The notes beneath the pieces are model-generated. The model worked only from the letters and a program-made list of their open reading frames with translations. It did not search any database and was not told the DNA's origin. Both the position numbers and the translations under genes were made by a program. Of a DNA stretch of 64,000 bases, positions 10,111 to 38,149 are shown in pieces (the first letter of the stretch is position 1; each line of letters begins with the position of its first letter). Location of the stretch: positions 31,186,001 to 31,250,000 of the forward strand of contig NC_092355.1 in assembly GCF_963676685.1 (NCBI RefSeq), read 5' to 3'. Source of the DNA: Mytilus edulis. Taxonomy: Eukaryota.

Positions 10111-11289
10111 GTAAATTGATATAAGTTATTGAAAGTAAACAATCCTACAAATATCCTACAGTAACGTAAAGGAATGATATTATAAAAAAAAACCACACTC
10201 ATTGAATATGCTTGTACTGCTTTCACACCAATTGCAACATTCATCATGTGCAGCATCAACCACAGAATATTATGATAAACACGAATCTGTAATACAGTAC
10301 GGATCCGTCTGAGGATAGACTCGATGAATCGACATATATACATGTTTAGCTCAACCGGCACAAATAGATCAAATGAGCTTTTCTCATCAATCGGCGTCCG
10401 TTGTCGTCCGTTAACTTTTACAAAAATCTTCTCTGAAACTATTAGGTCAAATTCAAACAAACTTGGTCATAATCATTATTGGGGTCTCTAGCATTCGTTG
10501 ATTGTACGTTATGGAATATCTAGACTAGTTCACAGATAACGATGAAACGTTTACAATTTAACGTCGTACCGACAATCCCGTCATAGTTTCCTCAAACATC
10601 ACACCACTTAATGGGGCTGATAACTTATTTGTAGGGACATAAGCATCACACAAAGAATGCCATATGTTGATCAGGATCCGCAATCTGCTCAGACTTCAGG
10701 TATACCTGAGATCACCCCGGTTTTAAATTGGGGTTCGTCTTACTCGGTCTTAGTTTTGATGATGAAACTTATCTTTTTTGTCGTGTTTCGTTTTTAGCAA
10801 TTGCATGACCAGTTTACCTTCGATAGTTTGCATATTTCTTTACTATATTGTCTCTTATTTTCTTCAGCTATACGCTAAAGGTATCTTGGGTATAGCTATA
10901 TAGTTACTGCTGAGCGTCTTTTAGTCAGCAGTAAAACGCTTAGCAAAGTGGATATGCATATCCATTTGACAGTGCGGGATGATTTTGCATCCACTTGTGA
11001 TCAGAATGGGGATGTCAAATCCGTTGTCTTCTGTTAAGAGAGTGCTACGTAAAAAAAAACCATGAATCAACTCTTCGGTTGGGGGGGGGGGGGTTCCATA
11101 GGGGGCCTGTTGCAATGCAACATGTCTGCGTGTATCAAACAAACCCTAGTTGTACAGTTGTAGTTTGAAAGTCCCGCACGTCAACTGTCTCAAAAATGAT
11201 GTAACTATTTATCTTTGAAACATAGTAGTTTACCATTATATTTCAAAATCCATTAAAAAAATATCCATGTATTCATTTTTATCTTTTAG

Positions 11290-13275
11290 GTAATGTGCTC
11301 TGGCCCGGAATAAATGTTAATAATGAATACCTGTATGAACAGCTTGTTCAAATAGTCGGAAAAGAAAGAGACATACGTCATAGACAACGGTTATTTCTGA
11401 TTAAAGATATAATAGAAAATATTATGGACATTTCTAATATACAGCGTATTACAAGTGGAAGTATATCCGAAGGACTTGATTTACCCGGCAGTGACCTTGA
11501 TATGATGTTTGTAATTGGTGTTGTAAAAGTAGTAAATATGTCAGAAAATATGAAATGTTCACGAAAATATACAAAACTGATGATGGAAACAGACCCCTTT
11601 TTTTGTATCCAGGGTTCACAAGACTGAAGTTAGCTGCAGTCGACTATCATTCTTCTTATCGTTTGATCAAAGATTCTCTAGTACAACGTTTGCAAACCAT
11701 CAGAAATGGTTTTTATGTATCAACCTATAAATTCGTTCAAAATATTCAACAAATAACGGAGTCAGTTGAAACGTTATTACACGGTCCATGTTTATCGGAT
11801 TTGTATGAGAAAATGGACGTTGCTTATTGTCTCCGTTGTAAATCATTCCAATACAATGCAAGCAATTGGGTAAATCGTCATAGAAAACATTGGCCACCTA
11901 GTGAAGTAATTGACACAATTGTGAAGAACGGCTGTTTGTTGGTACCTGTTGGACCTAAAACAATGACAAACGATCAATTGTTTTGGAGGTTATCTTTTTC
12001 TGTGGCAGAAAAACAACTGGTTCATTCGTTTAATTATACGCAATTATTATGTTACGGCCTTCTTAAATTAACATTGAAACACATCATTAACAAAAAACCT
12101 GGTGTAAAGGATTTGTTATGCTCCTACTTTCTAAAAACAACGCTCTTCTGGTTATCAGAGAAAGTGTCTATCGAGACATTTCAGTTAGCTAACATATTTA
12201 ACTGCTTTTTCTTGTGATTAGATACATTAAGATCGTTTGTTAACAATTGCTACTGTCCTAACTACTTTATACCTGAACAAAATATGTTTCAAGGAAAGGT
12301 CAATATGAGAAATAATAAGAGATTGCTAAGTATCCTTCACAGTATTGAACGTGGCGGAACAGCTGGACTGATATCTAATTTATTTTGCCTAGCACCAACT
12401 TTTATATGCAAATCTTCCACGCAGTTAGATTTTTTCTTTTATAAATATATCGCCGTATTAAAGTCTCAAACGCTTATAAATGACTGTTACCGAGGAATGA
12501 TTATTGCTAAATCTTTCCTTCAGAGTGAATCATCTATCTTTGTACGGGATGTATGCAAATGGTGGATCGACAGTCTCAATCATTTTGTGGTGCAACTACT
12601 TCCTCGTCCATTTGTGGGACAGAATGTCAAAAATAAACGGAATCGTTATCATAAACATTTACTGCAAAGTTTACAAACAGATGCTGTGAATGGTTGGTTG
12701 TTATACGCTTCGTTTTATTACGTAATTGGACAGTACAAAGTTACACTCCGAATTACAGATTATGTTTTATCAAAGTGTACACATGATAAGTTATATATAG
12801 GCTTTTTAACTTTTCCCCAAGATATAATAAATAACTATGCGAAAAATTTTGTACAAAAAACGTAACACTTAATGAAAAGGCGAAATTAGCGACTATAAAT
12901 CATTTTACATACTTGAAACGTTCATCTTTAATACCTTCGGAGCTAAGCCTGGAGGTGGAAAATAATGAATTGTATGTACCTCCTGTTGTTTTAACTCATT
13001 GTCTTAGAGTTTTGTGTTTCCATCATCTCGGTGAAACCTTCAATACACTACAAGCATGGCAGGATTTGAACTTAACTGTTAGAGAAATGTATTTCATCAC
13101 AAGCTGTCTAAAATCTGAAACATTAACAATTCTCGGTGTGTGCTGTGAGGTATCTGGGGATATTGATTCAGCTTGTTTGTGCTACGATGCAGTTTTACAA
13201 ACCCATAAAGGGACTAATTGTACAGCAGGCATTAGGAAAAAAGAACTCTTGAACAGACGGAATGTTAAACTCTAG
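11290..13275 (+). pseudogene. cGLR copy 1, main exon: Mab-21/cGAS-like nucleotidyltransferase plus TPR-like C-terminus (disrupted as assembled)
   Basis: Acceptor TTTTAG at 11289 is in phase with exon 1. Motifs [51 protein letters not shown] and CPNYFIPEQNMF. Frameshifts near 11600 and 12860; TGA at 12215-12217. Confidence 0.9.
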
Positions 13276-16200: not shown

Positions 16201-17385
16201 TACATTAGTTAACTGAGAATGACTTGATAATGCAAATGAATACTGTATTGGAACCCAATTTTACAAAATGTTGGCCGCAGCCGAATTTGACCATTTTTGT
16301 ACTTTATAATGTATATAATTTCAAAATTAGGTGAAAATTCAAACAAAATTGCAGCAAGAATTTTTTTTAGCAAAACTTGTTTTATATGACGATTCTGAAA
16401 CTCGGTAAAGGAATTACATGAATAGTAATAACTTTCGTGTTTGAACATGCCATTGTTTTAAACAACTTATCTGCATTTAAAACGTATTTAATCTAGATCA
16501 AATAAACTTGTATTTATAACTAAGATTGCATTGTTTACAAATTCCTCTGTTTTAGTTGTACGATAGGTAATGCAAACACAACATGCACAATGAAGGATAT
16601 TTTTGGTACTTTTTATCATTAGATACAGATTATATCAGTTGATTCTTTGTTTTGTTCATAGAAACGTAAGAATGTACTAATCAAAGATAGCACGAAGTCG
16701 GTTTTTTTTTATTATTTTACATGTTGTTGAAAACAATAAACTAAGTTATCACTGACACGTGTGATTGTCAAGTCACCATCACCCTATCGGCTGTGTTGAT
16801 TTTTGCATGTTGATAAGTTACAAAAAAAGCATTTAAAAGAGTGTTTTTGGAGGTGTATAATCATATAATCCCGATTAAAGTAAAGTCTTCTCATAATCGT
16901 AAGTATGTGAATGTAATAATATAATTGTATGAACATTAACATTGTTAGGTGATAAATCTTTGATTCACATTCGGTACGAGGTATTTGTTCGTGTACTTTA
17001 TTCCATGTTTTGTCTAGGACTTCGTCCCCTTTCAAACAAGTATAATCGTGTTGTTACTTATGTGTGCATTAATACTTTCAAATCTGAAAATAATTATAAT
17101 TTTCAAGTAAAAATTGGCGAAATTAAAAGTAATATCTATAACGGTAACCGTAAGTTAGAAGGAACAGTTATTGAAGCGATTAAATTGTTGAGTGTTTATC
17201 ATCAATGTTTCAACACTAAAGAAATTTAAAAAAACTCACGTGTAAAATCACGTTTTTTTTAACAAACATGTCGTAATTACTTAATACATTTTATCATTTT
17301 ACTTCTCAAAATCATTCTCGTATACCAGGGAATACAACAATCGCAACTTTGTAATCAGTATGTTTTATTTGATTTCAGTTCTGCA

Positions 17386-17449
17386 ATGAAGTGTATGTAC
17401 TGTTTGTTTGGCTTGTTTCTTTTGGTTTTGATTGTATCATCCTCTGCTG
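17386..17449 (+). CDS. Secreted protein exon 1 (signal peptide MKCMYCLFGLFLLVLIVSSSA)
   Basis: Acceptor TTTCAG at 17378 upstream of the ATG; hydrophobic core ending in SSA; donor G|GTAAGC. Confidence 0.8.
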
Positions 17450-20400
17450 GTAAGCAAGCAAGTTATATTGAAACACAAACTATTTATAACTGGACATCTC
17501 TTTGTATAATTGATAACAATTTTTTAACCGCTATTTGATATCATTGGTAAAAGTGAGGAGCTATGTGCATGATATACAAATATGACATACTGCTTGCAGT
17601 AAACAGCTTGTTATATCCTCAATGTTACCAATTAAAAATAACATGTTTAATTGCATCATCATAAATGTAATAATCCCTGATCGCTTTTGATAACGGGTGC
17701 AAAATCTGTTCATCCTCCGATTTACAGATGATCACCCAAGTGGTGTAGGGGGGGGGGAGTCGATGTCCTCAATCTTTAGTCTTTAAACTTCTATGTTTTG
17801 AATGAAAAACTGTTGTTTGTCTTTTTGTCGATATTCGTATGTTCACTGGATTTGTCAGTGTGTTTTTGACATACGAATTTAAATATTTTACACAACATCA
17901 ATATGAAGCGGAAACATTGTTCTAAGAGAATTTGAATAGAAATGGTTGTTTTTGGAGATAAATTAGTATATTCTTTCTTATTTCATGAAAAAAGTCATCA
18001 ATAGCGCGCTGCGTTACTTCGATTAAGTCGGTTATTGAATTTACTGTTTTCAAATTGAGCTGTTTTTGTTTTGTACTCTGTCTTCCTTTTGTATATTCTA
18101 CTGCATTTGAATGTAGTAAGACGTAAGTTTTCACATTTACCTTAATTTTGATTGTATACAATTTGATCATATATATTTAAAAAAAACCCAGTCATTATAA
18201 AAAAGGAAGATATGATATAATTGCCATTGAGAAAACTCTCCACAAGAGACCAAAATGACACAGAAATTACCAACTATAGGTCACCATACAGCCTTCAGCA
18301 ATGAACAAAGCCCATACTGCATAGTCAGCTATAAAAGGTCCCGAAATAGAAACAAATTCAAACGACCTAATTCATTCATTACTCTTGTTGTGGTTCCGCA
18401 CGATATAGTTTAAAAGCTGTCATTGATTAGAGTGCTATAGGTATTTAGAAAAGTTTAAATGAAACATTATTTGAAGTATCAATACATGAACAATTATTTT
18501 AATCATATTTGTGATCATTTGATATGAACATGATTGATGATTTGTGATTTAAAATAAAATTCCATTATACAATAAACACAAGCATAACTAGAGTGTTTAT
18601 CAGGGCCCTATATGACTGACGCCCTGTGTGCACTCCGCAGCATGATCTTGTTAATGCAATGATTTCAAAATTTTTTAATTTTATTTCATTGATATTTGGT
18701 ATGGAGTTTACTTTAAGACAAGTTATGATGAGCAGTTTTCAACAATGACCTTATAGTAATTTTACGAGAAGTGTCGTTAGAAAATCTATATTATACTTAT
18801 ATATTACCTTATAGAAAAAAAAACCACATCCGTTTGGTATCATTGTGACAGTGCCTGAGCAAAAAGTTGATGAACCTTGGGTATGTCACAGAACGTCTCG
18901 TCCTTTTTCTTTAAAAGTTCATTGGAAGGTACAAAGACCTTGTTGATAAATATTCCAATATCATTTTTACAAATACTACACGATGGTCTTGAAGTATAGA
19001 TTCTTGGTACTGACGTTGTTTATCGTCTGAATAACGTATTGTATTTTTTTAGTGATATCCATTTGACGTGGCTCTGTAATTATACATCCCGGCATTGTGC
19101 TATTATTCTATGATACCATTGTTGTATTCTGGTCTTTCTTTTTTGCTAATGTGATTTGTCTATATGCCTCTTTGTGTTTTCTTTGTTACATATATGACGT
19201 AGCTTTGTACTTATAAATCCTGCCATAATGTTATTGTGTTTTAGTAAAATTTTGTATCCTTGTCTCTCCTTTTTTGCTTATGTGCTTTGTCTATATGCGC
19301 TTTGTGCTTCTTTTGCAAATATCCGTTGTTTTTTTTGGTGATTCAGATTATAACACAATATTGACTGTTGTACCCCTATTTTTGTCACTTTTATCTCTTG
19401 TGTCTGTTTTGTTTGTTCACACAACATTGTCAATATAATGGAGTTTTAAACGACTGTCGTGCAAGTGAGAGGCCTCGCTAGCTATAAAACCCGGTTTCAT
19501 TCACCAATTTCTGCATCAGAAAATGCCTGTACCAAGTCAGAAATATGACAGTAGTTAATCATCCGTTCGTTTGATGTGCTTGAGTTTTTGATTTTGTCAT
19601 TCGATCAGAGACTTTCAGATTTGAATTTTCCTCGTAGTTCAGTATTTTTGTGATTTTACTTTTTTTTTTATACAACTTGTATTTGAAAGCAGTGGTCATA
19701 ATAATATTGAAATAGTTGATAAGAATGGCTTAATTTTGTAAGTAATTAAAAAACGGGGTATTATAAAACCATGCATCATTGGCGGAGATTTCTCTTTTCT
19801 GGTACAAACTTCACGAATTCTCCACACGATTTTTGTGGAATTTCAAATATGTTGATATAAATTATTTTGGCTGCCTTTGCATGTTTGTTCCCTAGTAGAG
19901 GTTCGTTATTCCATCTCTTTGTTCAGAACTGGACAATTTTATTTCATTTCAATGAAAGTGAATAATCAAATTACATTGAACGTAAGGCAAAGTTTTGTAA
20001 ATAAACTCATCATAGATACAAGGATTATATTTTGTATTTACGCCAGACGCGCGTTTCGTCTACAAAAGATACATCAGTGACGCTCGAATACAAAAAAATT
20101 CCTAAAAGTTTTGCCAAATACAGCTAAGGTGATCTATTCCTGGGATAGAAAAGCCTTAGTACTTTGAAAATTCAAAAGTTTTGATACAGTTTGATTTTAC
20201 AAATATGACCATATCAATGATAATTCATGTCAGCATAACGTGCTCACTACTGGGCTGGTGTTATGTTCAAAATGGAGCATTTTATACAAAGGAGTAGGTC
20301 CGGTAAGGCTCCTTTTTGGCCCAAAAATATAACAGTTTTACAAAATTGTTAAAATGTAAACTTTTAGTTATTTATTGGACAGATGAATGCTTCTGCTACA

Positions 20401-23400
20401 TAAATATGGGCTGTTTTTGACAATACAATGCACTTATATCAGGTTGTAGCACCATCAAGTCATGCTAAATTACTGAAATCTTTAAAATTCTATCATTTTA
20501 GTGAAATTTTAGACGGTTTCCGTGTAAAACGAAAGTGGCCGCATTCGTGTTCATCCTTAATATTGCAATGTAAGTTGTATTTTATGATAATACATAACAT
20601 ATATAAAGGTTGTGGATAAACAAGGATGCGGCCACTTTCATTTTTGACAAAAACAATCTGAAAAGTGACGTTTTTTGGCATATTTGAGAGATTTTTCATA
20701 TTTGAGCTTCAATCGGATCGTTTTTAATGACTTAATCAGTTAAAATCTTTCACACAAACTAATTGAATCAAGTGAAATAGACACTTAAGTGTTTAAAAAG
20801 TGGTAAAAATCTTTCGTCAGATGAAACTGAAATTTGAGGCCAAAATGAGTCCTTACCGGACCTACTCCTTTAGACTAAGTTCAGCCCCAGAAAATAATTT
20901 AGAGTGGGGTGCCCATTTTCGCCGGGGACACAATTTCGCCGTTTAAGGATTTTGAGGTGTAAAAACTTCAAAGGATGGCTGAAATGGAAGAAATGTACCC
21001 GTAAATTATATTTTTATAACAAATATAATATTTTTTTAAACTGAGACAAAATTGCGGCTCCTACCGAAAATGACCGAAAAACGGACAACGATTTTCGGAC
21101 AATTTCCTGAATAAAAAACACGATTTCAAACAAGTATTTCTAAGTTAATATTTGACTGAATGCCGTAATTTTGAATTCTTTATACCTTTTAAATGTCTGC
21201 TATTCATCTATAATGCAATTGATTTGATTAAAATTGTTAAAAGCTGCGGTTATTTGGTTTTAAATATATGTGTAAAAACGGCGAATATGGGTCCCCCATT
21301 GACAAAACATCCGGAAATTTCAAACACCCTGTAATCTAACTTTTCAGATGATTTCCTTAAAACAAACCGGTTTTCAAGCTTAAGTATATTTTGCATTTGA
21401 AGTTATCTTCATATAGAAATATCAGTATACTTCAAAAACATTTAGACCTGAACATAAACTGTAGAAAACATGGAAAGATGTGGCGAAAATGAGCACCCCT
21501 CTCTATAGGTGTTTGAAATAACTGTTACGGCCAGAGACACAAATCAATAATAATATTTAACAAGATTCATGATACAAAAGTTTACAAGAAGTATTACAAA
21601 TATCACTGTCAACTTAACTGTCAAAATATGAGTCCAATCTTTTATTTTTATCTGTATCCGGAAATCTTCACGGGAATCTAATCAGAATATCATATCCACT
21701 ACTAAGGTCACAATCTAGTATGATGTTGTTAGTAGAATAAAAGTGTCAATACAAATGCTGTGAATACTAATGTCTATCGATGTCTATGTCTGAAACTTTA
21801 ACTTTAGTGTCTGTATATATATGGTTGTCACGGAAATTTCTAGAACACTGTGGAAAAGGAAAGTACTAGTAAACTACAACGGAAATTTCTGGAAAAATGT
21901 AGAACTTTAAATAACGCATCTCTTGTTAGGATCATTCTTCAATCGTTATGTAAGTCAAATGGAAAGTTCCAATCATTCCATCAGTATCTGTGTTTGTTCC
22001 AGTGACTTTTAAACTGCACAGTTATAAGATTATTTTGTAAACAACTATCAGGGCACACAACACAAATTAGGCCAACATATATAAATATAATAATTACAAT
22101 ATCACAACATAAAATATATGTTATTAATAATGTTCAATTCAATTTGAAGTCTAGTGTGGACTATGTTGATGATATTGAAAGAATATGTCCTGCAAAGAAA
22201 CAATAACTGGATCATCTATAATTTCCAAAAGATGACGGTGCATTGGGCACTTAATTATCACGTTTTCTACAATATTTGTACTTACGATTGGTGGTTAACG
22301 TATCATGAATATGCAGATTATCCTATTGTTTTGTTAATATACATTGTGGTTAAGAATGTTCTAATTTGATCGTTGATAAGCATTTTCTCTTCAAATCATT
22401 ATGAACCACATCATCCTAGTTTATTTCAAAAATTTAAACAAAAATACATATTATACTTCTTTTTGAGAATGGTAATACATAAACTTATATATTGTTCTTA
22501 AAGAAATCAACTGGCAAAAGGAAGCAGGAGATGAAAAAAATAATATCGGTCAGGAACCAAAACTGGAAAGGTAATAATTAATGTTGACATACACCAAAAT
22601 ACTGAAGTTTTGTGAATTCTTAATTAAAAAAAAAACAAGACATATTTTAGTTGGAGCACTGTACATGTTTACCTACATTTTTTTGTAACTCTCATCCGCG
22701 ATAAATCAAATATATCTATTATACTAAAATAACGATGTCAATTTGTCAGCCGTCATCTGGTAAAAACGACAATTTAAAGAATTCTACATAATTAATATTG
22801 CCATTAATTAACAAGTTCCGGTCTAATCCGATACCGATACCAATAATATATTCACCTGTTACCTATTACCTTATCTGTATGTTCCGCATCTGACAGGCAC
22901 ACCACCAAACGGTGTATTTACGATTTTCCTATATACACGGGTCATAATCACAGGATTGACACTACTAAATTCAATCATTGTCAAATTGATCGCTATTGTA
23001 GTATTTTAATCAGTAAGACTTTTTAAGATGGCCATGCGAATACTAAAAATCTGGACTTTAAATAAGGCGTATAGGCACAGTTTTGAATTTGTTATCGGGC
23101 ATAACGCAAAACAGCGAATCAAAGAATTCAACTTTATTTATAACTAATATAGGACAATGATGTTGATTAAAAATATTCCATTCCAGGTCCTTTTGTTTTC
23201 CAAATAATCAATATTACCAATGATTGGTAAGTTCCAGGTCGACGGGTTCAAACAGAAAGATTTAGAAAGCAGATAAAACTGTGCATCTTATAATCGGCAT
23301 GACTTTATCAGCTGACAATATCAATACTAAAATAAGGCTTACGCATAGTTGTTTACTTTAATTCAGTCACGGACCCGCGAAATCATGGGTGTGTTCTAGT

Positions 23401-26250
23401 ATATGAATAATTTTGAATGATATTTCTAAATTGCCCACAATGAACTATTAGAAAAACCTGAAAACAAAAGTTTGTCTTTATAATTTACAAACTGTTTTGT
23501 TAAATGTGTCAAACGGACGACGGGTAGTCAAGTTTGTGAGGCAAATTATTTTTTTCTTTTGTGATCTTCCTCACAGCGCCTTTAGATAACCTGACCCAAA
23601 GGTCAAGCATATGTTCTTCCAATCACTTGTCGTTCGTCGTCTGTCGTCGTCCGTTAATATTTACCAAAATCTTTTTCTGAAACTTCTGAGCTATATTTAA
23701 TCAAACTAAGTCAGAGTCATTCTAAGGGTATCTAGTTTATAACTTGTGTCTGTTGATCCTGCCTGTCTACCAACATGGATGCCAACGGTAGAAAATAGAA
23801 CATGGGGATAAAATCCAAGTATCTTCTATTATCTTGCAAAGAGTTATAGAGAAAATCTAACAGTGCAGCAGAGGTTCAAAATATTTAAATCTAACTACCA
23901 TTTGCTTAGAAAAATATTCAGACGACTCTGTTTCGGAGTTTTCATGGTTATAAGCCTGAAAAGAAGATTTGTCTGCCATTTGTTGTTCTTTTGACTAATA
24001 TCTAACTAACTGCATTAGAGTGAGAACATCTCTAAATGCTAAACAAGATCATTACAGCATAATCTATAAATACGTTAACATGGCCGAATAGCCAATTGAC
24101 CTCTTGTAATAGTTATTGCACTTGAGAGAAGATTGTTTAGCCCTTTTAACTCTTAACAGCAAAACAGATCTGCTTTAAGACATACATGTACAAATTAACC
24201 ATTTAACATGGTCGAAATCGACAGTCGACACATAATAGAAGTTATTGCCCTTTTAAGACCTTTTTATTCATTTCTGTTGGCTTTTTTCTACTATAAAGTC
24301 ATTATGGCTAAAATTGTTTGATGATTCAACATAGGAGTAATGGCATTTGAAAGGTGATTTTAAACCATTGAACGTTTTTTTATGTAAACTATAACAAATA
24401 GAGAGAAACGATAAAAGGCTACGCGTATCAGCCGGACTCTATATACAGATCAGCTTGGCAACTTCAGTTTACTCATTGTATGAATAGACCACTTTCGAGT
24501 TTGTCCGTCACCGGATAAAACTCGTGAATTATGCATGTCTTTATGACGTCATTTACTAGATATAGGGATTCGCATGTATCCTTGCCTTATAAACTTTCAT
24601 CAAGCGTCTTAGTGATCGTCGTTGTGCAGGATAAACTAGAAATAATATTTGTATTGTAAGTACTTAATCAGAATTCCTTAATGACAGCAATGCTAAAAGA
24701 CAATTATGAGAAATCAAATTGCCGAATAATTCGCGCAACTTAGCTTTATAGTTTTCCAACCACTCGCTCAACCTTGGAAAGGTAGTGACGACGCCCCTAA
24801 ACGCACGAATGATGTTCACTAAAACCTAAGTTTTTGACGAAAATGTATCGAACTTGAAAGTGGTCTATTATTTCAACTTTAACGATCATGACGATAATGT
24901 TAAATTTTCTGGTTGTTTTTTTTTTTTTGGGGGGGGGGGAGGATAATAATTTGAAAAAATTATCTTGCATCGTATTAATTTTATATTTGAGCTATGTTTG
25001 CTTCTTGGAATCGCTAGTTGTAAGAATTTTCCTTTCTCGGTATTAAAGAAAAAACATTTTTTTTCTTATGTATAGTGTTTTGTTGTGGCAAAACATGAGA
25101 TAATTAAGTAAATTTTACCTTGCATTTCAGCTTCTAAGTGCTAAACTGAGATTATATATTATATACACACTGATATACTACATGCATATTAACGTATGTA
25201 CGACAATATGTAAAGGCTTTATACTATTCTTATTAATAACATGTTTTATCTTTCCTTTTAGACGGAGGCGAGGTCTGTATCCAGGTAATGTAGAATATAG
25301 CTTCTTTTTGCATTATTTTGAAGCAATAGGTCGCGTGCCGGAGTATTTACAAAGCATTACGAAAGGAGTTGCAAATTGGAGCATTGCATTTGGAGGAAAT
25401 AACTATATAAGCTATGATTCAGCTATCGAAAAAGTAGCAGACTATTATATCGATCCTACCAGAAGAGGTAAGTTTACCTGAGGAGGATATGTGTAACTTA
25501 TATTTTACATGTATATTAGTTTTATTATCGTACTATAGGGATCAATAAATCATTTCTCATAGAATATAGACTAGTTCATGAGTTGGCGATCATTTATATG
25601 TAACGTAACTCCGAAGTTTTGTCTTTTTGAAGTAAAAATGTAAAGAAATTATTACAAGTCGCAAATAATTAAATTGCATTAATGTATGACAGTCGAACTC
25701 CAAATGTATCACTTCGCATGTATTTACTACTAGTCTGAAGAAAGGATGACGCTTTTACAAAAAGTGATATAATTCATTTCCCAACTTCGAACAACTTCGT
25801 TTTGGAAAGGATAACAATTGTTATGCAATTTTATATATTATTTAATATCTAATAAATGTTACATAAGTTATATCTGTAACATTTAGTACAATGTGGTAAC
25901 ACAATTCTTGAAGACATAGTTCCTTGAAATCTCTGTTAAATAGATCATTATTTACGAGTTAAAAACTGCGAATAGTATTTTAATAGACATTTCTTAACTG
26001 ATATCGACCTAGTTACACGGTAAATGCAATATGAACATTTTTGTGAATTTGGATTGTTATATTAATTATAAGTATTTATATGTATGACTACGTTGTTTAT
26101 TTTTAATTTACAGTCGAAAGAAAAGACGCTATACGCACGATTGATGCCATTATTAGCATTAGAAAGAGGTATGGTCTTCTAGATGCTAACCATCAGCATA
26201 TCGTAGATGTGTGGACTGACGCAAGAAGAAGACTCTTTAAGGCACAGTGA
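17386..26250 (+). CDS. Four-exon gene for a 157-aa secreted preproprotein of unknown family
   Basis: Exons 17386-17449, 22504-22570, 25262-25467 and 26114-26250 total 474 nt. All introns are GT-AG with matching phases (1,2,1). Product: signal peptide, acidic pro-region, RRRR, and a Cys-free 110-aa mature region. Confidence 0.8.
20005..20260 (-). mobile_element. Retrozyme-type repeat with a degenerate minimal type I hammerhead ribozyme (20040-20083)
   Basis: Minus strand GCGTCA-CTGATGT-ATC TTTTGTA GAC-GAAA-CGCGCG-TC-TGGCGT: stem I, palindromic stem III and GUC site are present; core A9 is mutated. Confidence 0.7.
20288..20871. mobile_element. MITE / non-autonomous TIR element
   Basis: Inverted repeats AAAGGAGTAGGTCCGGTAAGG ... 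CCTTACCGGACCTACTCCTTT. Confidence 0.8.
20902..21503. mobile_element. MITE / non-autonomous TIR element, TA-flanked
   Basis: Inverted repeats GAGTGGGGTGCCCATTTTCGCC ... GGCGAAAATGAGCACCCCTCTC with TA on both sides. Confidence 0.75.
21523..22109. mobile_element. Possible solo LTR
   Basis: TGTT...AACA termini, ~590 bp, with an internal TATATA and polyA-signal-like hexamers. The flanks TAAC/TAAA are only a near-match TSD. Confidence 0.4.
22504..22570 (+). CDS. Secreted protein exon 2 (acidic propeptide EINWQKEAGDEKNNIGQEPKLE)
   Basis: AG at 22502-22503; donor AAG|GTAATA; phase 1 in and phase 2 out, bridging exons 1 and 3 exactly. Confidence 0.7.
22715..23399 (+). mobile_element. Non-autonomous Helitron
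   Basis: A|TC 5' end, hairpin ACCCGCGAAATCATGGGT, CTAG|T 3' end. Same family as 4679-5339. Confidence 0.8.
24483..24869. mobile_element. MITE / non-autonomous TIR element
   Basis: Inverted repeats AATAGACCACTTTCGAGTT ... AACTTGAAAGTGGTCTATT. Confidence 0.75.
25262..25467 (+). CDS. Secreted protein exon 3 (RRRR site and start of the mature peptide GLYPGNVEYSFF...)
   Basis: Polypyrimidine tract plus TTTTAG acceptor; donor AGAG|GTAAGT; open frame. Confidence 0.8.
26114..26250 (+). CDS. Secreted protein exon 4 (VERKDAIRTIDAIISIRKRYGLLDANHQHIVDVWTDARRRLFKAQ*)
   Basis: TTTACAG acceptor, phase 1, open to TGA at 26248-26250. Confidence 0.8.
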
Positions 26251-28027
26251 AGCAGAAAATTTACAAGATTAACCTTACTTTAAACTTTATCATATGTAAA
26301 AAAATTACATGTAATTATATATGAGAGAGAGAGACTGAAAGAGATTCATTATAGTACATCCATGCTTATACATGTATCATACTCTAAAAAAAATGCTATT
26401 TGAATTCAGGCATTATTTTCCTTCTAATCGAGATCGTTTTTTACAAATAGTCCTGTCGGTGGTGTTTGGTGTCATACAATTGAGGTCCTAACCAAAAATT
26501 TATAAATCATTTTTTGTTTTACGTAGCTTGATCGATTAATCAAACCACGTAGGAAGGAACACAAAAGGTATGTTACTTCTAAACTGGCTTAAAATCAAGT
26601 TGACACTAACTTGTAATAATATACCCAAGATCTACCACAAACTCTACTATATGTGTCAATTTCATTACAACTGATCAGGGAAAATATACAGATCCTGTGA
26701 CATTGCCTTATTTTGGACGATGACCAACGCTCTGTTCTACTTTCTGTGTATCTTCTAGTTTTGTCGTAATTATACACACCTTCAAAATGTGAAGGCTGAA
26801 ATTTAATTGGCTGATATAATAATTACTACAACAGAAAATAGAACTGTGTTTTAATCAGATTAATTTGTAATGAACCTGTCTAGATCAACTTCTAATCATA
26901 CACGGTCTAAGTTTTATCATGAAGTAAATCTCTGTAATCAGTAAATTGTCATGTGACAATTATTTTATCACTATGGGCGTATATGTATGTAAGTTCTAAG
27001 CTAAGGTATGTTTTATTTTGATAAAATTGTTTCTTCTGCATCGTCTACATATTATATAGTGATTTGAATGACTCTTACATCCAAATATCAAACTATTATC
27101 ATGGACAGACAATCATTGTTGAATTGTTATGAATGTATGCCTCCAAATTATATAGGTAGACTGATAAGTCATGTTTGTTTTTCTCCAAAAATCTTACTCG
27201 TAATATAAGACATCAAACGGTCACGAAGTATGAAATCACATACATTAAAACTTACTGCAATGAACAGTCATGTTTGTTTTCTTCCAGAAAGGTCAAACGC
27301 GTTCTTATACATCAAACGGGCATCAAATGTGGAATCACATGGCATAAAGTTCACTGCATTCTCATACTAAACACCGGTACAAATTGAACACTGGTCTCAT
27401 CTTTCAATGACAATAAGACGCCAAAATTAATTAAAGGCCAAAGGATGGCTCCATGGTGATTTTCTGTGTATTTTCAATATAAGTCTATATGCATTTCAAC
27501 ATGTTCGTAATTACAAGATATAACTACAATGTATGTACTATCAATAGTGCGTTCAACTTTTGATATATATCCTGGTCATTGTTAATGAAACAAAATAACC
27601 ATTTTAAACTTGAATAACAAACAAAACTCATTTCCGTTTGTACATTGTTTATCAGTCTTCTAGCGTTCTTGTGAACTAAGCTTCGGGGAAAAATAATTAA
27701 ATTTGAATGATCATTCTTCCTAACAGAATCACAAAAAAGACGAACAAAACACTTGTTGATAGCAAGAAGATAATTTTCAGAAATAGCTTCTTCCTGAACT
27801 ATACATATTATTCCAATTATTTATATGATTTAATTACAGAATTAACCAACTGAACCTTTTTGCTTGGTATTATGTGACCTTTCGTTGAATATAACAGTCA
27901 TGTACTAAATATGTAATTGTTAGTATTTCCATTATATTAGAATATGAAGATGTGATATAATAGCCAATGAGATACCCATTCATCAGATACCTCAAAATGA
28001 AATAAAATTTACCTTTCATGTTGCACT

Positions 28028-29725
28028 CAAAGAGTCGTTATTAATGGTCAGACATCATCGAGTCAAAACACCTATGCTGGTGTACACCCGGGCTCTATAC
28101 TCGGTCCTCTGCTTTTTCTTATCTATGTTAAAGATATTAAAGTTGGAATTATCATCAATATCAAACTGTTCGCTGATGTAACTTCCCTTGTCAAACAAAT
28201 TGATGACATCTCTGATTGTTTTCAAACTCTGAACAGTGACCGCGACACATTGAACACATGGGCCAATCAATGGTGTGTAACTTTCAATGCACAAAAAACT
28301 GTGTATCTTATTATTTCTAAGAAGAAGCAAATACCCCATTACCCCCCATTGATCTTAAATAATGTGATTATAAAGAGAGTTAAACATTTAGGTTTTATTT
28401 TGAATGATAAACTTTCTTGGACCGATCATATTGCTGACATTTGTAAGAAATGTCATAGTAAACTGAACACTATCTTAAGGATGCGACATATATTATTTAG
28501 AGTATGCATTGAAGAATTATATAAACCATTTCTTCGTTCATTGCTAGACCATGCAGATGTCATCTACTATAACTGCTCTAGCGCCGATTTTGCAAACATT
28601 TAACATGTACAAAGACGTGCCTGCATTATATCTACTTGGGCAATCAGGGTCACAAAACATGTCATTTTATTGAGAGAGGTTAGCCTTGAGCGCCTTTAAA
28701 CACGTCATCAAGTTCTTAGACTTACATACCTGTACAAAATTAAAATCATCTTGTCCAAGATTATCTCTGTTATATCCATCCATTGTTCCATCATAACACC
28801 GAAAACTATAACTTATGACGACATGCCAACGTGATACCCATCAGGTCAAGAACAGTAGCATAATATAATTATTGCATGTCTTCTAGCTACTATTAAAGAC
28901 TGATTTTCAGCAACATCTTTGGCGAGTTTCAAAAAGTTGTTAAAGAAAAAGAATCTCAATGTATGAAGTAAAAAAAAATATATTCACAAGGACATGGTTA
29001 TGAGAAAAAGATTCATACTAGATTACGCTTAGGGCTTAATGCCCTTATTGACCTCTTGTACAAATATAATCTTACATTAAATAGGTTTTTCGATTTCTGC
29101 CCAGGTAACCGTATTGAAAGCACTAAGCACTATTAATTTATTGCGCCCGTTTCATGAACTATCGGATTACTCTTCTACTTGGTATTAAGAATCTGATTTG
29201 TCCGGATATAAATAAAGCAATGTTGCGGGATCTATGTCCCAACTATCTGAGCAAAATTTTGATAGAAGGTAGTGACCATTTGTCTGATGATACTAATTTA
29301 GAGTTGTTTGAGTGTGTGTTTCGATATATTAAATCTTCAAACAGATTTTCTCGATAGCTAAATAACTTATTTGTACTTTATTTTTTCCTTGTAATTAAAC
29401 ATATAAGGTATGAAAAACACTTTCCATTGGATCTGATTGTACTCAAAATCGTCTTTCGGTAATCAGTATGCTATATTTCTGAATCATACATGTTTGTAAA
29501 GTTGTGTGCATGTGAGTAAGAATGAGCGAGTGATTGGATGGGTGTGTAGTCAAATTACATTCTTATGTCTTGTCCTGTAAATATTGTCTTGTCTTGTGTT
29601 TAACATGTTTGTAAACTTTAAAAAAAAACTAACTTTGTTAATTTTGAATCTATATATATCTATGTTGAGGAGACACACCCGTAGCCTCTGGTTGTTTGCA
29701 TCCTCTTTAAATAATTTAATAAAAA
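28028..29725 (+). mobile_element. 5'-truncated, degraded CR1-clade-like LINE (RT C-terminal part and 3' UTR)
   Basis: QRVVING...AGVHPGSILGPLLFLIYVKD...IKLFADVTSL...WANQWCVTFNAQKT...KHLGFILNDKLSWTDHI...HTRLRLGL...FRYIKSSNRF, with many stops and frameshifts. Confidence 0.85.
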
Positions 29726-34676: not shown

Positions 34677-35588
34677 TATATATGATATATATATATACAA
34701 GTATATATATATATATTTATCATTCAGGTCATACATATTGGTCTGAAGATAATGTTCACCAGCAATATGTATATGAACAACTTGTAAATATAATCGGAAA
34801 GGAAACAGATTTACAGCGGTTATTTTTGGTACAAGATGTGATTAATTGGGTCAGGATTAACATACATATCAAGTGGAAGTTTAGCTGAAGGTTTGAGTTT
34901 ACCTGGCAGTGATCTTGATATCATGTACGTTTTACACGGTATTAAAGTCGTCAATAGGGAACAGGATATACCAATTCCAAATGAATTTGCAACACTGTTG
35001 ATGGAGATAAACCCTAATCATCTAGGATTTAGCAGACTTAAATTAGCTGAAGGTTTCGAGACATCTAGTCCACTTCTTTAAAAAATGGTTACAAAAACCG
35101 ACGAAGGTTTATACCTAGAACCCCATGAATTCATTTCAATTTTTCAACAACATACAATACCTACATGGCCCATGTGTTTCAGATAAATGTATGGCTTTGA
35201 ATATAGCAGTTGTTTCCGAAATAAATCACTTCCCTTACTATGTAAAACAATGGGTTTGTCGACAAAGAAAACAATGGCCGCCGAATGCAGTTATTGATAC
35301 CATATATATAATGAGATTTGGATGTTTGCTGGTACCAATCGGACCTAAAACGATGACAAATAATCAGTTTCTATGGAAATTATCATTTTCAGTTGCAGAA
35401 AAACAACTTTTACACCCAACTATTATGCTACGGTCTACTTAAATTAACATTGAAACACATCATAATCAAAAAGCCAGGTGAAGAGGATTTGTTATGTTCA
35501 TATTTTCTAAAAACAACGTTGTTTTGGTTGTCAGAGGAAGCATCCATCTAGACATTTCAATTACAAAACTATTTCACTTTTAAAAATT

Positions 35589-36982
35589 GGCCGTTTCAGA
35601 ATCTAATGCATTCTGGGTAATATTTTCAAAAGCGTACACCAAGGCGTTGTGATTGGTTTAAAACATTCTAAACAATGGAAATTCAACCGATGACGTAACG
35701 TTATTTTCGTTTTAGGGTACGAACAATAAAATTACCCATGATCAGGGTTTCCGCTGGCGGTCGCAATTTGCGAAAAAACAATAATTGTGGCGATAAAAAT
35801 TCGTCATTTGCGAAAGAATTTGGCGAAAGAAATATATATATCCATAACGATTTATTTTCCTCCATCTTGTTTATTTACCTTTTTCGAGTTTCTCGGACTT
35901 TACCCAATCAGTCAATACTCGGAATTCACCTTGACCTTATTAAGATTTGGACAGAAAATCAATAATCAGCTGATTGCATTTTATAGCTATCGACAACAAA
36001 GGACTAATTAATAAAGGTGTTGATTGAATTGTTTGACAAAATGATATGGTTAAATGGCTTCCACTAAATGTCACATGCCGAATTTATTTACCACTTTTCG
36101 ACGCACGTGTTTGAAGCAAACTTTGACGTCTCCTCTCCTTTTAAAGATAGTTTAAAAAGAAAGCTGTTGTTGTGACGAAAAATGTTCAAAAGCAAGAAAA
36201 ATCTCCGATTCAAAACTTTAATTATCCTTTGACTTTAATATAGGTAATTGATTAGGGAGACTACTTTAAAGTCGTTTGAGTGACACACGTGTTTTAAGCA
36301 AAGTTTTACGTCTTAACGTTTTCATTTACGATGGACAAGAAAAGAAAACTGTCGTTATGAAGAAATCTATCCAAAAGGTTGGGAACAACCATCAAATGAG
36401 AGTAACCCTTCAATGTAATGTCTACACATGAAATGAGGGGTCAATTTCATGTGATAAAAGCTTTTGTTTTGTTGTAAAAACCACTTCTTAGTACAAAAGG
36501 GCACATCAGTATTTTTCTTTTAAAGAAACTTTCCCTACGAACTATACTCATGTCTGGTAAATAAATATTATATGATCAAAATATGCCCATTAATTTTGTT
36601 ATATTCCAGGACTTCTTTATTATTAAAAGTATAGTGGTCTCCTCATTTAGAAAAGTTGTTTAAAATACAAGAATATTTTTCCCTTTTAAGTTAAAAAATT
36701 CTGTTGTTTTAAAGTAAACGGTTAGTGTTTATTCATTAAAATGTAGACTCTAAAATAAGTTTGAGAGAATAATCAAAGACACAATGGGGAAAAATCATCT
36801 TAATTAAGGGAGGGGTAGAAAAAAAGGTAAATTTCAAACGAAAAATATATTTATGTTACATGTACTTGGCGAAAAAAATAATAAAGTGGCGAAAAATATA
36901 TTGTTTTGGCGAAAGAGGTGGCGAAAAAAATAATTGACCCAGGGGAAACCCTGCCCATGATGCTTCAAGTACTGAAACGGCC
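35589..36982. mobile_element. Short TIR element with a 4-bp AATT duplication (Sola1-like, superfamily uncertain), containing a nested hAT
   Basis: TIR GGCCGTTTCAG...CTGAAACGGCC. Removing it plus one AATT restores the codon register seen in copies 1 and 3. Confidence 0.75.
35743..36953. mobile_element. Non-autonomous hAT element
   Basis: TIR CAGGGTTTCCGCTGG / CCAGGGGAAACCCTG; perfect 8-bp TSD CCCATGAT (35735-35742 and 36954-36961); subterminal TGGCGAAA repeats. Confidence 0.9.
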
Positions 36983-38149
36983 AATTGTGCCTAGGTAATT
37001 TAATATCGTAGATAGAAAACTGCCACTGTCCTAATTACTTTATACCTGCACAAAACATGTTTCAGGCAAAAGTAGAGCAATAACCAACTCTTGCTCAGTT
37101 TTCTCGACAGCATTATTTGTGATGAAACTGTAGGACTGGTATCGAATGTATTTTCTAAAGACCTAGCATCGACCATGACAAACAAGTAGACTTTTTGTTT
37201 TATAAGATTTTTTCCAAATTTGGAAACCGTGGATTAATCGCCGTTCAATATCTGCTCCAATCAGAATCATCTGTATATATACGTGATGTTTGCAGAAGAT
37301 GGATATCAAATATTAACCAGTATATACTGTACTACAATAACTTCCTTCTCGGGTCAGAAGAAAGAAGATCGAAAATATACGTAACCGCTATCATAATCAT
37401 TCACAAGATGCCCTACAGCAAGATGTTGTGACTGGGTGGCTGTTGTATGCATCTTTTTACTATGTTATCGGACAGCATAATGTTACACTCCGAATAGTAC
37501 ATCATGTTCTAACAAAGTGTACATCGGATAAGATATGTCACGGCCTGGTATCATATCTCCAAAGACAGACTAATTACTTGCTAAATATGTCCATATGCAA
37601 TCCATAGCATGAAATGGAAAGTTAAGATTAGCAACTATTTCTCCTATTAGATACTTACAGAATTCGTCTTCAATACCCAATGAGTTACAACTTTAGATCC
37701 AAAAAGGCTACATCACCGTAACTCCTGTTGTGATGCCTCATTGTATGAAATTTTTATGTTTTTATCATCTTGGTGATTTTTTTAACAGACAACGGGCGCT
37801 GAGAGATTTGTATTTGACTCTAGAGGATGTTTTTTTTTTATTTCACCAAAACAACAATCATTGTCTTTCTTAATTGGTGGTATGTGCTCAGAATTATCTG
37901 CTGATATAGAAACTGCCTGTCAGTGTTACGTTGCGATAAAAAATATTGTTTCACAGCAAAAATCAGGAAAACAAGAATCTCTTAAAAAGACAGGATTTGG
38001 AATTTTCTTAATAACCGAGAAAAATATACCAGTTTCATTACTTGAAATAAACGTTATATGATGTGTGTCCTTTGAAAACTGGTTATTTCAATCATTACTG
38101 TCATATGTTTAATTGCTTCAGATGAACCTTAAAAGAAATAGCAAGTTCA

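What the first reader, a model, noticed from the sequence alone, without database searches (positions are those of the whole stretch)
17386..26250. Unannotated secreted preproprotein gene embedded in the cGLR cluster
Seen: four exons splice in phase to MKCMYCLFGLFLLVLIVSSSA / EINWQKEAGDEKNNIGQEPKLERRRR / GLYPGNVEYSFFLHYFEAIGRVPEYLQSITKGVANWSIAFGGNNYISYDSAIEKVADYYIDPTRRVERKDAIRTIDAIISIRKRYGLLDANHQHIVDVWTDARRRLFKAQ*. Established: a signal peptide, acidic pro-region and furin-type R-X-R-R site is the layout of many antimicrobial peptides, cytolysins and cytokines. Inference: the 110-aa Cys-free, probably helical mature part matches no family I recognise. It is intact between dead cGLRs and could be an immune effector or cytokine-like output. 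Further basic sites (RR, RKR, RRR) allow additional processing.
Basis: partly seen in the sequence, partly recalled or inferred. Interest (0 to 1): 0.75.

Follow-up and report, generated by a model that had tools for sequence, protein, structure and literature searches.

The report
Undescribed mussel-oyster secreted helical protein family
This is a real, spliced mussel gene for a predicted secreted, enzyme-cut protein of an undescribed mussel and oyster family; the oyster relatives add a tail that looks antimicrobial, so the family likely serves host defence, while its place among cGAS-like genes is likely coincidence.

Summary
The gene model is right. Four GT-AG exons give 157 aa, and each of the three junctions appears in at least one public contig set. 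It is not unannotated: RefSeq holds it as an uncharacterized Mytilus edulis protein. It belongs to an unnamed family: two paralogs 16 Mb away with the same intron phases, M. galloprovincialis and M. trossulus relatives, and 8 Saccostrea oyster proteins. The first R-X-R/K-R site is kept in 13 of 13 sequences; the extra basic sites are kept in 0 of 10. The mature domain models confidently as six helices, with no Pfam, PDB or fold match. All 8 oyster members add a second cut site and a 36-43 aa, +12 to +15 amphipathic tail ending in Cys; mussels lack it. Against M. trossulus the prepro part is 77% identical and the mature part 44%. The cGLR link is unsupported: the gene is outside the repeated unit, the paralogs have no Mab-21 neighbours, and Mab-21 loci are genome-wide. 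Best reading: a fast-evolving secreted defence protein; function untested.

The parts
16783..16898 (+). Inferred 5'-UTR exon (5' end approximate), with a GTAAGT donor at 16899
   Evidence: Matches residues 7-40 of the M. trossulus model at 77% (E 1e-11); donor and acceptor; region single-copy in this genome. Spliced contigs carry 24-111 extra nt upstream of exon 1, but this junction was not among the joints shown.
17379..17449 (+). Exon 1: 7 nt of UTR and the predicted signal peptide (ATG 17386; Met4 at 17395 is the family-conserved alternative start); phase-1 donor
   Evidence: joint 17448-22503 in X3; Met4 nearly invariant. Signal peptide judged by eye; SignalP not available.
22504..22570 (+). 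Exon 2: polar pro-region; phase-2 donor supplies the P4 Arg
   Evidence: joints in X3 and X1
25262..25467 (+). Exon 3: last 10 nt of the pro-region (RRRR site; mature protein predicted to start at 25272) and helices 54-65, 69-77, 84-87, 95-107
   Evidence: R44 and R47 invariant in 11 of 11
26114..26250 (+). Exon 4, coding part: helices 109-131 and 137-156 with invariant R129, G133, D136, H139, W146; stop TGA
   Evidence: joint 25465-26112 in 4 runs
26251..27500 (+). 3' UTR (continues past 27500; longest contig 3213 nt); no relic of the oyster tail found
   Evidence: table 8; (best E 0.69 in the window, 0.14 at the paralog)
11229..13275 (+). Context: broken Mab-21 (cGLR-like) copy upstream, split over four frames
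34727..37938 (+). Context: heavily decayed Mab-21 copy downstream
   Evidence: several stops and frameshifts

Best explanation
This spliced mussel gene encodes a predicted secreted precursor that a furin-type convertase likely cuts after RRRR to release a 110-residue, cysteine-free, predicted six-helix domain, which most likely acts outside the cell as a fast-evolving host-defence module that binds non-self surfaces. Shown: gene structure, splicing, family membership, the conserved cut motif and the uneven divergence. Predicted: the fold, secretion and cleavage. Inferred: the defence role. In Saccostrea oysters the same domain is followed by a second cut site and a cationic amphipathic tail that likely stays tethered by one disulfide. 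The domain would then be the targeting or carrier half of a two-part effector, and mussels would deploy that half alone. The position in the Mab-21 cluster is likely incidental.
For: Family: a profile built from Mytilus sequences alone finds Saccostrea proteins at E 1.4e-11 and 8.6e-6 among 1.84 billion. A profile built from Saccostrea cores alone scores 5 of 5 Mytilus cores at 35-53 bits, against at most 8.9 for the 970 of 1000 shuffles reported. R-X-R/K-R then G/S/A-L-Y/F occurs in 13 of 13 sequences, and 15 mature positions are invariant in 11 of 11. AF2 pLDDT is 76-96 per 10-residue block over residues 51-157. Tail in 8 of 8 oyster sequences: RKKR then GIG, 36-43 aa, net +12 to +15, hydrophobic moment 0.66-0.76, one linker Cys and a terminal Cys. 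Against M. trossulus LOC134691659, which shares the single-copy 5' exon, prepro is 34/44 and mature 48/110 identical (Fisher p 1.6e-4; paralog control p 0.58). Mussel CRP-I peptides show this pattern and the same prepro exon layout, down to the last 10 nt of the pro-region opening the next exon (PMC4558851 passages). The two exon-3 variants shared by 5 runs both change residues (N82K, N91Y).
Against: No activity, tissue or induction data exist here. The mature domain is nearly neutral (net 0 to +4 in 13 of 13), unlike typical membrane-lytic peptides, and it could not neutralise the tail by charge. The window gene has no tail. dN/dS against the distant paralog is about 0.56-0.65, below 1, and the paralog lineage is conserved between species (91-96% mature identity), so fast change is confined to this subfamily. 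The M. trossulus gene may be a paralog or a mosaic rather than an ortholog. CRP-I, the closest layout analogue, showed no antimicrobial activity in its own tests (section heading and passage). Fast mature-domain change is equally typical of gamete proteins (own knowledge).
Confidence: 0.45

Rival explanations
1. A gamete or reproductive-tract protein (acrosomal or seminal), whose mature domain diverges between sister species through gamete recognition.
For: 44% mature versus 77% prepro identity to the M. trossulus gene; patchy presence among RNA runs; small helical secreted proteins act in mollusc fertilisation (recalled, no call).
Against: The oyster tail has the features of a membrane-active defence peptide, and the paralog lineage is conserved between Mytilus species.
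Confidence: 0.17
2. A cytokine- or hormone-like ligand, possibly induced by cGLR-STING signalling, acting on a host receptor.
For: Prepro layout, compact helical domain, long 3' UTR; lies between Mab-21 copies.
Against: Not part of the duplicated unit; no Mab-21 hit in 2 x 100 kb around the paralogs; 149 of 150 scored Mab-21 candidates (510 seen) are spread genome-wide; no kB site, and no clear excess of ISRE or GAS sites, in 2.2 kb upstream; ATTTA count 10 against 13 expected.
Confidence: 0.13
3. A secreted matrix protein of shell, byssus or mucus, in which the Arg-rich oyster tail binds polyanions or mineral.
For: Furin-cut precursors with basic tails are common among bivalve matrix proteins (recalled, no call); contig depths of 30-404 in the four holder runs laid (a poor measure of expression).
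Against: The domain is globular, non-repetitive and has a conserved aromatic core; the tail starts with a strongly amphipathic helix.
Confidence: 0.13
4. A small secreted enzyme of unmatched fold, using invariant E55, R129, D136 and H139, delivered in oysters by a disulfide-tethered cell-penetrating tail.
For: Four polar invariants at 26-46% identity between lineages; two-Cys, two-site layout in 8 of 8 oyster proteins.
Against: D136-x-x-H139 and G133 sit at helix ends and can be capping residues; only about four independent lineages were sampled; whether the residues cluster in space could not be inspected.
Confidence: 0.12

Closest known systems
Mytilus CRP-I peptides (PMC4558851, passages and section 16; PMC10138031, passages)
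   Same: 5'-UTR exon; signal-peptide exon with phase-1 intron (17 codons in CRP-I and in the two paralogs, 21 here); pro exon with phase-2 intron; next exon opening with the last 10 nt of the pro-region; conserved prepro with variable mature part.
   Different: CRP-I mature peptides are 25-38 aa knottins with six Cys in one exon. Here the mature part is 110 aa, Cys-free, helical and split over two exons. Prepro sequence homology was not tested.
Prodomain-plus-peptide defence precursors: vertebrate cathelicidins and polychaete BRICHOS peptides such as nicomicin (PMC6265681, passages)
   Same: The oyster members have signal peptide, folded domain, cut site and a C-terminal cationic amphipathic peptide.
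   Different: No cathelin or BRICHOS Pfam match in 11 of 11 members. The domain is near-neutral, is itself freed by a first furin site, and stands alone in mussels.
Oyster big defensins (PMC3182236, passages)
   Same: Signal peptide, short pro-region, R-X-K/R-R furin site, mature protein near 100 aa.
   Different: No six-Cys beta-defensin domain; different exon layout.
Myticalins (PMC5577615, passages; PMC12294457, abstract)
   Same: Cys-free mussel secreted precursors with a 5'-UTR intron just before the ATG.
   Different: Myticalins place a Pro/Arg-rich peptide right after the signal peptide, followed by an anionic extension, in three exons; there is no folded 110-aa domain.

Membership tests
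CRP-I | Signal peptide, pro-region and dibasic convertase site | tested here: met
   (signal peptide judged by eye)
CRP-I | Prepro exon layout: phase 1, phase 2, last 10 nt of pro-region in the next exon | tested here: met
CRP-I | C-C-CC-C-C array in a 25-38 aa mature peptide on one exon | tested here: not met
   0 Cys in the core of 13 of 13 sequences, 107-116 aa; two exons
CRP-I | Sequence homology of the prepro region | not tested
   CRP-I sequences are in figures and supplements that I did not see
Cathelicidin/BRICHOS-type precursors | C-terminal cationic amphipathic peptide after a convertase site | tested here: not met
   Absent in the window gene and all 5 Mytilus full-length proteins; present in 8 of 8 Saccostrea homologues
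Cathelicidin/BRICHOS-type precursors | Cathelin or BRICHOS domain by sequence | tested here: not met
   No such Pfam match in 11 of 11 members at E up to 10
Cathelicidin/BRICHOS-type precursors | Antimicrobial activity of the released peptide | not testable with these tools
   Needs synthesis and assay
Big defensins | R-X-K/R-R propeptide site | tested here: met
Big defensins | Six-Cys beta-defensin domain | tested here: not met
Myticalins | Pro/Arg-rich peptide directly after the signal peptide, anionic C-terminal extension, three exons | tested here: not met
Helical cytokines, saposin-like proteins, sperm lysins | Shared fold | tested here: inconclusive
   Best VIA Z 6.7 (rmsd 3.8, 77 aligned) and 6.6 (rmsd 3.9, 104 aligned), below the level the tool trusts for helical bundles; Foldseek best E 0.64
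cGLR-cluster component | Duplicated with the Mab-21 unit, or linked to Mab-21 at paralogous loci | tested here: not met
   1 copy among 8 units in 264 kb; 0 hits near 2 of 2 paralogs
cGLR-cluster component | Co-regulation with cGLR-STING signalling | not testable with these tools
   Run metadata are coded and contigs give no expression levels

The most novel reading that the evidence does not exclude
An undescribed bivalve counterpart of cathelicidin and BRICHOS precursors, built on a helical fold with no structural match. Oysters release a disulfide-tethered two-chain effector (targeting domain plus membrane-active Arg-rich peptide), while mussels keep and rapidly diversify the targeting domain alone behind a CRP-I-like prepro exon cassette.
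Probability: 0.3. Interest if true: 0.72.

Novelty: new variant of a known kind. Interest (0 to 1): 0.47.

Why it matters
Few cysteine-free or protein-sized defence effectors are known in bivalves (PMC12294457, abstract). This family offers directly synthesisable candidate antimicrobial peptides in farmed oysters, a small soluble domain with no fold match, and a natural comparison (domain with tail versus domain alone) for asking what a prodomain does by itself. The shared exon layout with CRP-I suggests a reusable secretion cassette in mussel genomes.

Tried and rejected
Fold and family searches found nothing usable: Pfam (best ERK-JNK_inhib E 0.005, under cut-off, 1 of 11 members), PDB by sequence (best E 0.036), Foldseek PDB and viral (none at E 0.001), VIA wide (none at Z 8), ESM Atlas (no feature hit, structure TM 0.55 at most). 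No cytokine, saposin, lysin, HEPN or ACBP chain was noticed in the 50 rows shown; that does not exclude them. An ACBP resemblance (E 0.2) vanished with the deeper profile and was dropped. P0010 (1062 aa, six repeat matches) was dropped as a repeat-driven hit, so 5 of 6 hits were kept. Complex prediction of the oyster domain with its tail gave no verdict (score 0.02, alignment not used). No RNA holder is on record as RNA; X21 (0.00 share) and X20 (only low-depth pieces) were not used as evidence. My script label 'THAP' for the repeated upstream segment had no Pfam support and is withdrawn. The tree groups the window gene with M. trossulus at 87/83 only, on long branches, and is not relied on. 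Literature: 0 papers for the accession plus 3 motifs and 0 for 3 motifs plus 3 identifiers; listings named no such family; PMC8398477 passages showed no match. No supplements were read, and subscription papers, figures and proteomics tables could hold these peptides. Earlier scan notes: nothing; six unrelated genes.

Full report
Observation. The four coding exons are at 17386-17449, 22504-22570, 25262-25467 and 26114-26250, with GT-AG ends and phases 1, 2, 1. The same protein is in RefSeq as XP_071142729.1, uncharacterized, Mytilus edulis, in a cluster of one, so 'unannotated' is wrong. Public contigs skip the introns exactly: exon 1-2 in X3, exon 2-3 in X1, exon 3-4 in X1, X3, X8 and X13. These runs are only guessed to be RNA, but intron-free joints indicate mRNA. 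The longest contig is 3213 nt and runs past 27500. Raw RNA run X22 had no depth over exons 1, 3 and 4, and X23 had no reads laid (no test). Expression is therefore either restricted or the gene is missing in some animals; I could not separate the two. An upstream UTR exon near 16783-16898 is inferred from the M. trossulus model.

Family in this genome. Exon 3 finds two paralogs on the same contig, at 15.38 and 14.83 Mb, about 16 Mb away. They have a signal-peptide exon, a pro exon, RLRR at the start of exon 3 and the same phases. RefSeq models of them are 159 aa, five residues longer than my exon chain. Searches with six further family queries found no other locus (lower bounds).

Family elsewhere. 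Word-based searches with the single protein returned only itself. A Mytilus-only profile over 1.84 billion representatives gave 6 hits; 5 were kept and one repeat-driven hit was dropped. They include M. trossulus LOC134691659 and two Saccostrea cucullata proteins (E 1.4e-11 and 8.6e-6). A second round and cluster look-ups added M. galloprovincialis VDI34086.1 and more Saccostrea members, 8 oyster sequences in all. The reciprocal test holds: an oyster-only profile scores 5 of 5 mussel cores at 35-53 bits against at most 8.9 for shuffles. Mussel-oyster core identity is 26-33%. No Magallana, Crassostrea, Ostrea or scallop protein was among the hits, which may reflect limited sensitivity.

Anatomy. 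The first site (R-X-R/K-R followed by G/S/A-L-Y/F) is present in 13 of 13 sequences. AlphaFold2 with 11 sequences gives six helices over residues 54-156, with block pLDDT 76-96 (one search agrees). Pfam, PDB sequence, Foldseek, VIA and ESM Atlas searches gave no significant match; this does not prove a new fold. The core is near neutral (0 to +4). All 8 oyster proteins continue past the domain through a linker with one Cys, a second site RKKR, and a 36-43 aa tail that starts GIG, has net charge +12 to +15 and an N-terminal hydrophobic moment of 0.66-0.76, and ends in Cys. Those are the properties of linear helical antimicrobial peptides (own knowledge). A disulfide between the two Cys is inferred. 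No relic of the tail was found after the mussel stop codons or elsewhere in this genome (low sensitivity).

Evolution. The M. trossulus gene shares the single-copy 5' exon. It is 34/44 identical in the prepro part and 48/110 in the mature part (p 1.6e-4), while the distant paralog shows no such contrast (p 0.58). The paralog lineage is itself conserved, at 91-96%. dN/dS against the paralog is about 0.56-0.65; between the two recent copies there are 7.8 replacement and 1.2 silent differences, too few to test. Two exon-3 variants shared by five runs both change residues. One low-depth contig in another organism carries a further diverged exon 4 (23 differences in 142 nt; weak). Mussel CRP-I genes show the same contrast and the same prepro exon layout, including the last 10 nt of the pro-region opening the next exon (PMC4558851, passages; here). 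This could be a shared cassette or convergence.

The cGLR question. The cluster holds 8 Mab-21 units from window position 11 kb to about 125 kb, most broken, two with long open frames of 681 and 675 aa. The secreted gene occurs once, and only interspersed repeats in its introns and flanks recur in the region. Neither paralog has a Mab-21 hit in 100 kb. Mab-21 matches number 149 of 150 scored, from 510 candidates, on all 14 large contigs, in line with the bivalve expansion reported in PMC9980059 (passages). A crude promoter scan showed no clear excess of immune motifs. Proximity is best read as incidental; co-regulation was not testable.

Mechanism and rivals. Most likely (0.45): a secreted, convertase-activated defence module. 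It would be the targeting or carrier half of a two-part oyster effector, used alone in mussels. Rivals: gamete protein (0.17), cytokine-like ligand (0.13), matrix protein (0.13), small enzyme (0.12). No function was tested.

Comparison and verdict. It is not a CRP-I, myticalin, big defensin, cathelicidin or BRICHOS member, since defining features were tested and not met. It is laid out like CRP-I at gene level, and its oyster relatives are laid out like prodomain-plus-peptide precursors (PMC6265681 and PMC3182236, passages). Searches for its identifiers and motifs found 0 papers; supplements were not read. Verdict: a real gene of an undescribed bivalve family, a new variant of a known kind, interest 0.47. 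The oyster tail is the most testable lead.

Noticed in passing
window 9.8 kb, 30.9 kb, 44.8 kb, 58.7 kb; G000:C12 near 31,285,500, 31,297,700 and 31,311,800: A conserved segment of about 120 codons precedes most Mab-21 units (7 copies, 59-75% identical); the 2 copies scanned had no Pfam match. It may be an N-terminal exon of these genes.
   Followed up: partly
G000:C12:31286983-31289025 (+) and 31308479-31310503 (-): Two Mab-21 copies with long open frames (681 and 675 aa). Their motif reads S-G-S...D-L-D rather than the [Q/T]-G-S given in PMC9980059, so cGLR activity is not established.
   Followed up: partly
window 20288-20872: A palindromic repeat of about 590 nt in intron 1 also sits just downstream of paralog A (89% identical) and at about 128 kb in the cluster; probably a mobile element.
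   Followed up: no
window 28001-28603: A 200-codon frame that looks like a LINE reverse-transcriptase fragment (recalled motifs, not scanned).
   Followed up: no
G000:C12:15,371,700-15,384,700 and 14,819,950-14,833,700: The two paralogs lie in a recent duplication of about 13 kb (94-97% identical), 550 kb apart; RefSeq models add five residues that my exon chain lacks, perhaps a micro-exon.
   Followed up: partly
L018 (G000:C12 about 15,410,600-15,418,900, minus strand): Three consecutive long frames (551, 1342 and 869 aa) that look like an LTR retroelement (recalled motifs, not scanned); observed only.
   Followed up: no
window 26191-26329, run X18: A low-depth contig with 23 differences in 142 nt and the stop codon kept, hinting at a further variant of exon 4 that was not found in this assembly.
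   Followed up: partly
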